DNA of 64,000 nt, taken from the NCBI GenBank assembly GCA_963765205.1, contig CAVXVB010000009.1, forward strand, positions 1,088,001 through 1,152,000, in the 5' to 3' direction. The position numbers were made by a program, and so were the translations under genes. Of this stretch, positions 56,086 to 57,781 are shown piece after piece. Within the stretch, counting starts at the first letter, position 1; each line of letters starts with the position of its first letter. Under the pieces are notes generated by a model, which was not told where the DNA came from, did no database searches, and saw only the letters and a list, made by a program, of their open reading frames with translations. This DNA comes from an uncultured Verrucomicrobiae bacterium (GTDB taxonomy: Bacteria; Verrucomicrobiota; Verrucomicrobiia; Opitutales; JABDGR01).

Positions 56086-56424
56086 CTACAAGGCCGATTC
56101 GCCGCGTTCGTCAGTGCGGATGCGGACGACCTCCTCGACGGCGGTGACGAATATTTTGCCATCGCCGATTTTGCCGGTCTTGGCCGCGCGGGAGATGGCG
56201 GCGATGGTTTTCGAGACGCTGTCGGTGGCGACGGCGATCTCGACTTTGACCTTGGGCAGAAAATCCACGGTGTATTCGCTGCCGCGGTAGATTTCGGTGT
56301 GGCCTTTTTGGCGGCCAAAGCCCTTGACCTCCGTGACGGTCATGCCCTCGATGCCGATTTCGGCCAGGGCTTCTTTAACTTCCTCGAGCTTGAACGGTTT
56401 GATGACAGCGGTGATGAGTTTCAT
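56086..56424 (-). CDS. glnB: P-II nitrogen regulatory protein
   Basis: [28 protein letters not shown]. Confidence 0.96.
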
Positions 56425-56490
56425 AAGGCGATAAGACCCGACCACCCTACACGCTCACCCCACCCACTGCAAAGGAAAAAATTCAGGGGG

Positions 56491-57108
56491 TTAAACATCC
56501 GTGGGGTTGTTCATCTTGAACACCGCCGCCGCGGCGGCCCCGCCGGCAAAATTGGCGAGCAGGAAGACCCACAGGTCCGTCCACGGCGACAGGCCCATGA
56601 CGCTGATGCCGACGGCGACGGCGGGGTTGAAGGCGCCGCCGGAAACCGGGCCGACGGCAAACGTGCCAGCCAGGACGGTGAACCCGATGGCCAGGCCGTA
56701 ATAGGAATTACCCGCCGTGGCCTTGGTGGTGACGACGTTCAAGAACACGTAGCACAGGGCGAAGGTGAAGAGGAATTCAGCGAGCAAGCCTTTGGCCACG
56801 TCGAGGCTCGGGGGCAAGTTGCCGGCGTGATAGAGGTATTGCACGCACATACCGGCCACGATCGCGCCAAGAATTTGCGCGCCCCAATACGGGCCGACGT
56901 CTTTCATCGGGCAGCGCCCGCGCAAGGCGACCGCGAGCGTCACCGCGGGATCGTAATGGCCGCCGGAAATGTGCCCGCCGGCGTAAACCATCACCATCAG
57001 CACCGCGCCGATGGCCAGCGGCGGCATCGCGGCCCCGCCAATCACCGAGCAACCAACGGTGAAGACGAGAAAAAAGGTGCCGATGAATTCCGTGAGGTAT
57101 TTGTTCAT
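56491..57108 (-). CDS. MIP/aquaporin family channel with atypical motifs (DPA and NPAV)
   Basis: [18 protein letters not shown]...[10 protein letters not shown]; six TM helices. Confidence 0.92.
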
Positions 57109-57304
57109 GGAGCGGGGCGTAAGCAGCTCTCCCCGACCCTACTGTACCTCGTTGTGAAGACAAGCCAAACCACGGATGGCAATGTATTGCAAAAACCCAA
57201 AGCCATTCACCGCTAAGACGCCAAGGAAGTCATTTGTGTAAAAACATTCTTTGCGCCCTGCGCGCCTTCGCGGTGAAAAAACCAGCTTAAAAATGCCTGC
57301 CCGC

Positions 57305-57643
57305 CTATAACGCCGCTTTCCCTTTTTCATCCGTGCGGATGCGGACGGCTTCCTCGATGGGCAGCACGAAAAGTTTGCCGTCGCCGATTTTGCCCGTTTT
57401 CGCCGCCGCCGCAATGGTCTCGACCACTTTGGGCGCGAGTTCGGACGAGACCGCGATGTCCAGCATCACCTTGGGCAGAAAGTCCACGGTGTATTCGCTG
57501 CCGCGGTAAATTTCCGTGTGGCCCTTTTGCCGGCCAAACCCCTTGACCTCCGTGACCGTCATGCCTTCGACGCCGATTTCGGCCAAGGCTTCTTTGACTT
57601 CTTCCAGCTTGAAGGGTTTGATGATGGCTTTGATAAGTTTCAT
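57305..57643 (-). CDS. glnB: P-II nitrogen regulatory protein
   Basis: Same signatures as the other copy; T-loop Tyr51 present. Confidence 0.96.
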
Positions 57644-57764
57644 GGGATAAGGGACTGGAACAAGAGGGTGGAGAATGTGTTAAAATGTCGTTGACGCGGG
57701 GGGTGGCCGGCCAACGACCGCCCGTTCACGCAGGCCGAGACCGGCGGCGGGCAACCAAGAACCA

Positions 57765-57781
57765 AGCAAGCCCCGTGCCAG
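57765..57781 (-). promoter_or_regulatory. Sigma-54 (-24/-12) promoter upstream of the P-II operon
   Basis: Minus strand CTGGCACGGGGCTTGCT matches TGGCACG-N4-TTGC. Confidence 0.85.

What the first reader, a model, noticed from the sequence alone, without database searches (positions are those of the whole stretch)
56086..57781. Sigma-54 P-II / aquaporin / P-II operon: a MIP channel where amtB would be expected
Seen: a consensus sigma-54 promoter (TGGCACG-N4-TTGC), then P-II, a MIP channel and a second P-II, all co-oriented, with no amtB in the window. Known: glnK-amtB is the classic sigma-54/NtrC nitrogen operon, and GlnK gates AmtB through its T-loop. Inference: this may be a nitrogen-regulated, possibly P-II-gated ammonia or urea channel of the MIP family. 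I know of no description of that pairing.
Basis: partly seen in the sequence, partly recalled or inferred. Interest (0 to 1): 0.85.

Follow-up and report, generated by a model that had tools for sequence, protein, structure and literature searches.

The report
Aquaporin gene between two P-II genes
In one uncultured bacterial family a widespread aquaporin of unknown substrate sits between two nitrogen-sensing P-II genes. It appears to have its own promoter, and the real ammonium transporter lies elsewhere in the genome, so it is probably a lodger rather than an ammonia channel controlled by P-II.

Summary
The genes and the sigma-54 motif are real. The motif precedes the first P-II in 25 of 26 locus rows; the other row lacks upstream DNA. 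The MIP follows that P-II in 18 of 22 independent loci of one family. The ammonia/P-II-gating reading is weak. amtB lies on another contig. The MIP is an AqpX-grade channel with the I-A-G-V filter, the same as in unlinked homologues. No P-II lies beside it in 80 GTDB loci or 61 other class genomes. The linked copies fit one origin. 82% adjacency is close to the 68% background. The MIP and the second P-II each have their own sigma-70-like element. The sigma-54 site stays with the first P-II when the MIP is gone. Best reading: sigma-54 glnK-like plus constitutive glnB-like genes, with an AqpX lodged between them. Read-through induction under nitrogen limitation is not excluded (about 0.27); direct gating is about 0.06.

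The parts
57766..57780 (-). sigma-54 (-24/-12) motif TGGCAC-N5-TTGC, 137 nt before the first P-II start
   Evidence: conserved in 25 of 26 locus rows; invariant TGGCA and TTGCT columns in an 8-genome alignment
57305..57643 (-). P-II (PIIa, 112 aa), GlnK-like by its sigma-54 promoter; canonical T-loop with Arg47 and Tyr51
57206..57277 (.). REP-like intergenic hairpin repeat, common in this genome
   Evidence: half-motif 108 copies, 98 intergenic
57136..57163 (-). sigma-70-like element TTGTCT-N16-TAGGGT, ending 27 nt before the MIP start (inferred own promoter)
   Evidence: TTGTnn-N16/17-TAGnnn in 17 of 18 linked loci versus 0.5% of 2315 upstream regions
57109..57143 (-). possible leader hairpin ending at the MIP start codon (weak)
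   Evidence: mean -14.8 kcal/mol in linked loci versus -4.8 +/- 4.3 background; half-shuffle mean z -1.85, but +0.6 in this genome; no consensus structure
56491..57108 (-). MIP channel, 205 aa, AqpX grade; filter I33-T149(A in relatives)-G158-V164, no Arg; position 56952 probably a base error (Asp53 for Asn)
56444..56472 (-). sigma-70-like promoter TTGCAG-N17-TAGGGT of the second P-II
   Evidence: 19 of 20 rows (two are duplicates)
56086..56424 (-). P-II (PIIb, 112 aa, 77% identical to PIIa), GlnB-like by its own sigma-70-type promoter
55110..55889 (-). MBL-fold hydrolase, conserved downstream neighbour of PIIb; no nitrogen role known to me

Best explanation
The locus is a tandem of two ordinary P-II genes with an ordinary AqpX aquaporin lodged between them. 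PIIa is made from a sigma-54 promoter, most likely under nitrogen limitation (GlnK-like). PIIb is made from its own sigma-70-type promoter (GlnB-like). The aquaporin came to lie at this site once, in the ancestor of two genera, and has its own sigma-70-like promoter. It works as AqpX channels elsewhere do: a passive, arginine-less, hydrophobic pore for water or small neutral solutes, substrate unknown, with a faint hint of peroxide from neighbours in other phyla. It may receive some read-through from the sigma-54 promoter, but that is not why it is kept. The P-II proteins act on the usual targets in trans, including the Amt encoded elsewhere, which in this genome has no P-II beside it. Shown: genes, motifs, conservation, single clade, filter residues. 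Inferred: promoter activity, nitrogen response, lack of gating, substrate.
For: (1) amt is present elsewhere and in 8 of 10 family genomes. (2) The pair is family-confined: no P-II or Amt beside 80 of 80 GTDB homologues or 61 of 61 other class genomes with this MIP. (3) The 17 full-length linked MIPs form one side of a branch, support 81/76, so they are one event and not independent evidence. (4) Adjacency of 18 of 22 (82%) compares with a background of 96 of 141 (68%) for co-oriented pairs 41-300 nt apart with both genes present. (5) The sigma-54 site stays with PIIa in all 3 MIP-less loci that have upstream DNA. (6) Own promoter-like elements: MIP 17 of 18, PIIb 19 of 20. The TTGnCn-N16/18-TAnnnT pattern is enriched before divergent genes here (46 versus 10.4 shuffled in 686 regions; 6 in 476 convergent regions). 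The unlinked orthologue in G008 has a similar upstream stretch (by eye). (7) The filter is I-A-G-V in linked and unlinked copies alike; the 7 linked-enriched positions (6, 24, 26, 35, 96, 119, 179) avoid cytoplasmic loops B and D and the C-terminus. (8) The model has 2 residues before helix 1 and 5 after helix 6, so little surface for docking.
Against: Retention (82%) is above the conditional background (68%) and well above the unconditional one (23-53% for the same gap classes). PIIa-MIP stays together in 4 loci (3 independent) where PIIb no longer directly follows the MIP, and across several upstream neighbours. No conserved terminator lies between PIIa and MIP: 8 of 18 loci have no terminator-like hit even in a loose scan. 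The MIP's -10 box ends in T in only 8 of 19 rows, so the promoter may be weak, and the pattern was derived from these same sequences. Tree support 81/76 is not starred. Only the best 80 of at least 572 GTDB homologues were examined. There are no expression data.
Confidence: 0.6

Rival explanations
1. The AqpX was captured into the nitrogen regulon. Read-through from the sigma-54 promoter raises it under nitrogen limitation, and it is kept because it passes a neutral nitrogen solute (NH3, urea, a small amide). Control is by transcription only, not by P-II binding.
For: 18 of 22 loci keep the pair; PIIa-MIP survives separation from PIIb and changes of upstream neighbour. No conserved terminator. 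Sigma-54 motifs also precede glnII and, near-consensus, urtABCDE. The filter is predicted wide and hydrophobic (PMC8355241, passages).
Against: Own promoter-like element. Among the 7 family genomes with the pair, urease was found in 2 and the urea-carboxylase domain in 0 (genomes 50-92% complete). This genome already has urtABCDE and Amt. The polar His/Arg filter that explains ammonia passage in AtTIP2;1 (PMC4814140, abstract and passages) is absent. No amt, P-II, urease or glutamine synthetase among 141 neighbours of unlinked homologues. Inference: a passive pore cannot concentrate a scarce solute and would leak NH3.
Confidence: 0.27
2. One reading: a P-II trimer plugs the MIP pore through its T-loop, as GlnK does with AmtB.
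For: Both P-II proteins keep an invariant T-loop. P-II binds transporters other than Amt, such as NrtC/D and UrtE (PMC8042125, passages). The genes are adjacent.
Against: Minimal cytoplasmic surface. No linked-specific residues in cytoplasmic loops. Threefold P-II against a fourfold MIP (tetramer per PMC6912568; the AmtB trimer match is recalled). PIIa without a downstream MIP in 4 of 22 loci. T-loop conservation is explained by the usual targets.
Confidence: 0.06
3. The sigma-54 promoter answers a signal other than nitrogen, and the region is not a nitrogen operon at all.
For: There are four sigma-54 activators and none was assigned as NtrC (only the AAA domains were scanned). glnA type I and amtB have no sigma-54 motif upstream in this genome. 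No conserved activator site was seen upstream of the motif.
Against: Motifs before glnII and urt and before amt in G007. glnD is present. Two activators have receiver domains.
Confidence: 0.07

Closest known systems
glnK-amtB operon (sigma-54/NtrC; GlnK gates AmtB)
   Same: Sigma-54 motif before a canonical P-II, followed by a membrane channel gene.
   Different: The channel is a MIP, not an Amt. amt exists elsewhere. In this order the usual arrangement is amt then P-II (13 of 20 loci). The channel has its own promoter-like element. The pairing is restricted to one family.
AqpX grade of prokaryotic MIPs (Tesan et al. 2021, PMC8355241; IAGV filter also noted for Opitutus and Methylacidiphilum in PMC6912568)
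   Same: Two NPA boxes, no aromatic at H2, no Arg at LE2, I-A-G-V filter; MIP fold, pLDDT 92.
   Different: The position between two P-II genes is not mentioned in the passages and supplements read. This genome has Thr for Ala at H5.
Ammonia-permeable aquaporins (AtTIP2;1, AQP8; PMC4814140)
   Same: MIP fold (5i32 Z 27.9, rmsd 2.3, 201 aligned; tied with NIP2;1 and AqpZ).
   Different: Lacks the H2 His and the filter Arg. The loop C His position was not mapped.
GlnB/GlnK paralogue pair (constitutive plus nitrogen-inducible P-II; recalled from proteobacteria)
   Same: One P-II with a sigma-54 motif, one with a sigma-70-like motif; GlnD is present.
   Different: The two genes are neighbours; the labels rest on promoter motifs only (both score under the NCBIfam cut-offs).

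Membership tests
AqpX grade MIP | Two conserved NPA motifs | tested here: met
   Asn in 16 of 17 linked copies at box 1 and 17 of 17 at box 2. The window's Asp53 reads Asn in near-identical contigs of two runs.
AqpX grade MIP | No aromatic residue at H2 and no Arg at LE2 (commonly I-A-G-V) | tested here: met
   I33, A/T149, G158, V164; register against AqpZ and NIP2;1; definition.
AqpX grade MIP | Groups with the published AqpX sequences in a tree | not tested
   The published accessions were not fetched; my trees used homologues found here.
glnK-amtB operon | Amt-family transporter gene adjacent to P-II | tested here: not met
   The adjacent gene is PF00230; the only PF00909 match is on contig C4.
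glnK-amtB operon | Sigma-54 promoter before the P-II | tested here: met
   Motif conserved in 25 of 26 rows; rpoN present. Motif only; activity not shown.
glnK-amtB operon | Co-transcription of P-II and channel | tested here: inconclusive
   No conserved terminator, but an internal promoter-like element. The one RNA run held no informative contigs.
glnK-amtB operon | P-II binds and blocks the channel, ADP/2-oxoglutarate dependent | not testable with these tools
Aquaammoniaporin (TIP2/AQP8 type) | His at H2 and Arg at LE2 in a polar filter | tested here: not met
   Ile and Val in all 56 rows counted versus PMC4814140. This lowers 'is a TIP2-type channel', not 'can pass NH3'.
P-II (GlnB/GlnK) | PF00543 domain with intact T-loop and Tyr51 | tested here: met
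   glnD present.

The most novel reading that the evidence does not exclude
This family has wired an AqpX aquaporin into the sigma-54 nitrogen regulon behind glnK, so that the channel is induced under nitrogen limitation and passes a neutral nitrogen solute. That would be the first genomic clue to the substrate of the uncharacterised AqpX grade. In the boldest form (about 0.06 of the 0.3) P-II also gates it, which would be a new class of P-II target.
Probability: 0.3. Interest if true: 0.72.

Novelty: new variant of a known kind. Interest (0 to 1): 0.33.

Why it matters
AqpX channels are widespread (at least 572 homologous stretches in GTDB) and their substrate is unknown (PMC8355241). A true nitrogen-regulated copy would point to a substrate, and P-II control of an aquaporin would extend the known P-II targets. 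On present evidence the more modest value is a lineage marker, plus a caution that a P-II/channel neighbourhood need not be a glnK-amtB analogue.

Tried and rejected
DPA motif as a special pore feature: rejected, since near-identical contigs read Asn. Repeat at 57206-57277 as an insertion scar: rejected, it is a common intergenic repeat. Conserved RNA switch before the MIP: no Rfam match, no RNAalifold consensus on a MAFFT alignment, half-shuffle z only -1.85 on average; kept as weak. Expression: the single RNA run had a 0.05 word share and gave only short relative contigs, so no evidence either way; the small-share peat and rhizosphere runs are no evidence of habitat. Nitrogen fixation context: PF00148 over the cut-off in 0 of 10 family genomes. 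Urea: see rivals. P-II tree: too little signal to call PIIa the orthologue of the amt-linked P-II of other families (PIIa group support 34/84), although the KVM-x-I-A-V stretch looks alike. A promoter-anchored metagenome pattern was not run; a PIIa C-terminal pattern was used instead, which by design finds only this family's PIIa. Literature: searches for aquaporin/MIP with PII, glnK or glnB listed no paper whose title or abstract start describes the pairing. The one recurring hit (PMC8115048) has 'aquaporin' only in a reference title. The library lacks most subscription papers. Rows dropped before counting: L008 (identical to the G006 locus, probably mis-binned in G007), L192 (= G003), L197 (= G005), L195 (97% to L183), G001 (both P-II at contig ends), G008 (no PIIa found).

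Full report
1. Observation. The three genes are as described, on the - strand: P-II 57305-57643 (PIIa), MIP 56491-57108 and P-II 56086-56424 (PIIb). TGGCACGGGGCTTGC lies at 57766-57780. Alone it is weak: 31 of 100 shuffles give a match, and the genome has 10 exact sites. It is conserved, however, 79-138 nt before PIIa in 25 of 26 locus rows, the last having no upstream DNA, while the flanks diverge. The genome has rpoN, four sigma-54 activators (two with receiver domains), glnD, and a sigma-54 motif before a GlnII-type synthetase with a near-consensus one before urtABCDE. glnA type I and amt show none. No nitrogenase match passed the cut-off in 10 family genomes. The organism's order is inferred to be Opitutales, because MIPs of same-order handles group with named Opitutaceae records.

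2. amtB is not replaced. The genome has one Amt on contig C4, and 8 of 10 family genomes have an Amt match. Outside the family, 13 of 20 best-hit P-II loci have amt within the fetched flank, always upstream of the P-II. The slot behind P-II is therefore not where amt sits in this order. This genome's amt has no neighbouring P-II; PIIa and PIIb are the only P-II genes found, so they are the candidates for regulating it in trans (inference).

3. The channel. It is a compact MIP (model pLDDT 92; best structural matches NIP2;1, AqpZ and AtTIP2;1 tied at Z about 28). The filter is I33-A/T149-G158-V164, with no aromatic residue and no Arg. This matches the definition of the AqpX grade (PMC8355241: main-text passages, supplementary file 8 part 1, and 30 of 36 AqpX rows of Supplementary Data 1). 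IAGV was noted for Opitutus and Methylacidiphilum with unknown permeability (PMC6912568: first seventh of the text and passages). The tested trypanosomatid AQPX pass water or glycerol poorly and their substrate is unknown (PMC11316224 passages). The His and Arg that explain ammonia passage in AtTIP2;1 (PMC4814140: abstract and passages) are absent; that does not exclude NH3 diffusion. The window's DPA is probably an error: a 1027-nt contig with one difference in run X1 and a 219-nt contig with one difference in X2 cover 56952, where all laid contigs read T, giving Asn.

4. How far the pairing extends. In the family (10 genomes), PIIa-MIP is adjacent in 7 (G000, G002-G007; G002 is split over two contig ends). 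G009 has PIIa-PIIb without a MIP (68% complete). G008 has PIIb alone and its AqpX 98 kb away. G001 is cut at both P-II genes. A MIP-blind metagenome scan for PIIa's C-terminal codons gave 17 loci: 14 with the MIP directly downstream and 3 without (ispH, or convergent genes). After removing duplicates this is 18 of 22 independent loci. Outside the family, none of the best 80 of at least 572 GTDB homologues has P-II or Amt within up to 4 kb (72 and 74 have more than 600 nt on each side). None of the 61 other class genomes with this MIP, of 300 searched, has P-II within up to 1.5-2.5 kb (a few are near contig ends). The 17 full-length linked MIPs form one side of a branch (81/76, not starred), so the pairing fits one event inherited vertically.

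5. Is 82% retention special? I measured gene-order retention between this genome and about 400 kb each of G004, G007 and G006. For co-oriented neighbours 41-300 nt apart with both genes present it was 96 of 141 (68%); for gaps up to 40 nt it was 131 of 152. Without requiring the partner's presence it was 23-53%. The PIIa-MIP figure is thus above background but not clearly so, and kin are not independent. In favour of a functional tie: PIIa-MIP persists where PIIb no longer directly follows the MIP (L183/L195, L190, L193) and across different upstream neighbours.

6. Transcription. PIIb has TTGCAS-N16/17-TAnnnT in 19 of 20 rows. The MIP has TTGTnn-N16/17-TAGnnn ending 23-28 nt before its ATG in 17 of 18 linked loci, against 0.5% of 2315 upstream regions. 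The spacer varies in sequence at fixed length. Only 8 of 19 rows have the strict final T, and the pattern came from these sequences, so it is a likely but unproven and perhaps weak promoter. In this genome it is strict (57163-57136). This promoter type is enriched before divergent genes (46 versus 10.4). The sigma-54 site remains with PIIa in G009, L186 and L198, where no MIP follows. No conserved terminator separates PIIa from the MIP: a loose scan hit 10 of 18 loci, convincingly only G002. Read-through is therefore possible. No useful RNA data were found.

7. Gating. Filter residues are the same in 17 linked and 39 unlinked copies. The seven linked-enriched positions are not in cytoplasmic loops B or D or the C-terminus, and the termini are 2 and 5 residues long. 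A threefold P-II does not match a fourfold MIP as it matches AmtB (recalled and inferred). P-II does bind non-Amt transporters through their soluble ATPase subunits (PMC8042125 passages), which a MIP lacks.

8. Substrate. Among the 7 genomes with the pair, urease was found in 2 and the urea-carboxylase domain in none (incomplete genomes), and this genome has an ABC urea importer. Among 141 neighbours of the 80 unlinked homologues there is no amt, P-II, urease or glutamine synthetase. There are scattered amidase-like and purine genes, and 6 loci with catalase or peroxiredoxin.

9. Verdict. The arrangement is real and apparently undescribed: searches (listings only, apart) and this scan's notes showed nothing on it. 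It is built of known parts. Most likely (0.6) it is a sigma-54 glnK-like plus constitutive glnB-like tandem with a lodged, separately promoted AqpX. Nitrogen-linked expression with a nitrogen solute as substrate is about 0.27, P-II gating about 0.06, and a non-nitrogen sigma-54 signal about 0.07. Interest 0.33; 0.72 if the novel case holds.

Noticed in passing
G000:C4:122522-124084 (L001) and G002 L072: amt here has no P-II beside it and is followed by a convergent folE2. In G008 a P-II sits before folE2 (contig cut upstream), and in G003, G004, G006 and G007 amt is followed by a third P-II. This genome seems to have lost the amt-linked P-II, leaving the two at this locus as the only ones found.
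   Followed up: partly
L064, L065, L066, L071 (amt-linked P-II of G003, G004, G006): A divergent P-II clade (55-64% identical to PIIa, start MKKIEAI-NP) on a long, well-supported branch.
   Followed up: no
L088, L092, L120, L102, L123, L148: In 6 of 80 unlinked AqpX loci the adjacent co-oriented ORF is a peroxiredoxin (3) or a catalase (3), in Ignavibacteria and Acidobacteriota; a faint hint of H2O2 permeation. No background rate was computed.
   Followed up: partly
G000:C9:1239063-1240804: The genome's second MIP lies behind arsR-like and arsC-like genes (named from their sequences by recall), probably an arsenite channel.
   Followed up: no
G000:C9:881964-895481: Urease cluster with a nickel-transporter-like gene and urtABCDE (named by recall except PF00449); a near-consensus sigma-54 motif lies before urt.
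   Followed up: partly
genome-wide: Shine-Dalgarno-like motifs precede only about 7% of 1622 predicted starts; C-rich stretches precede ATG instead.
   Followed up: no
G007:C347 (L008): Identical to G006:C122 over PIIa and its flanks; probably a mis-binned contig.
   Followed up: partly
L040, L183, L190, L193: One subclade of linked MIPs sits on a long branch (0.51, support 100/100) yet keeps I-A-G-V; in three of the four the MIP is no longer directly followed by PIIb.
   Followed up: partly
window 57853-58761 (-): A lipoprotein-like ORF lies between the acyltransferase/AMP-ligase gene and the sigma-54 site in this genome only among the eight promoter regions aligned.
   Followed up: no
window 51386-51500 approx.: Short tandem repeat visible as a repeated GTEGQRDR in spurious ORFs after a four-helix-bundle-like gene.
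   Followed up: no
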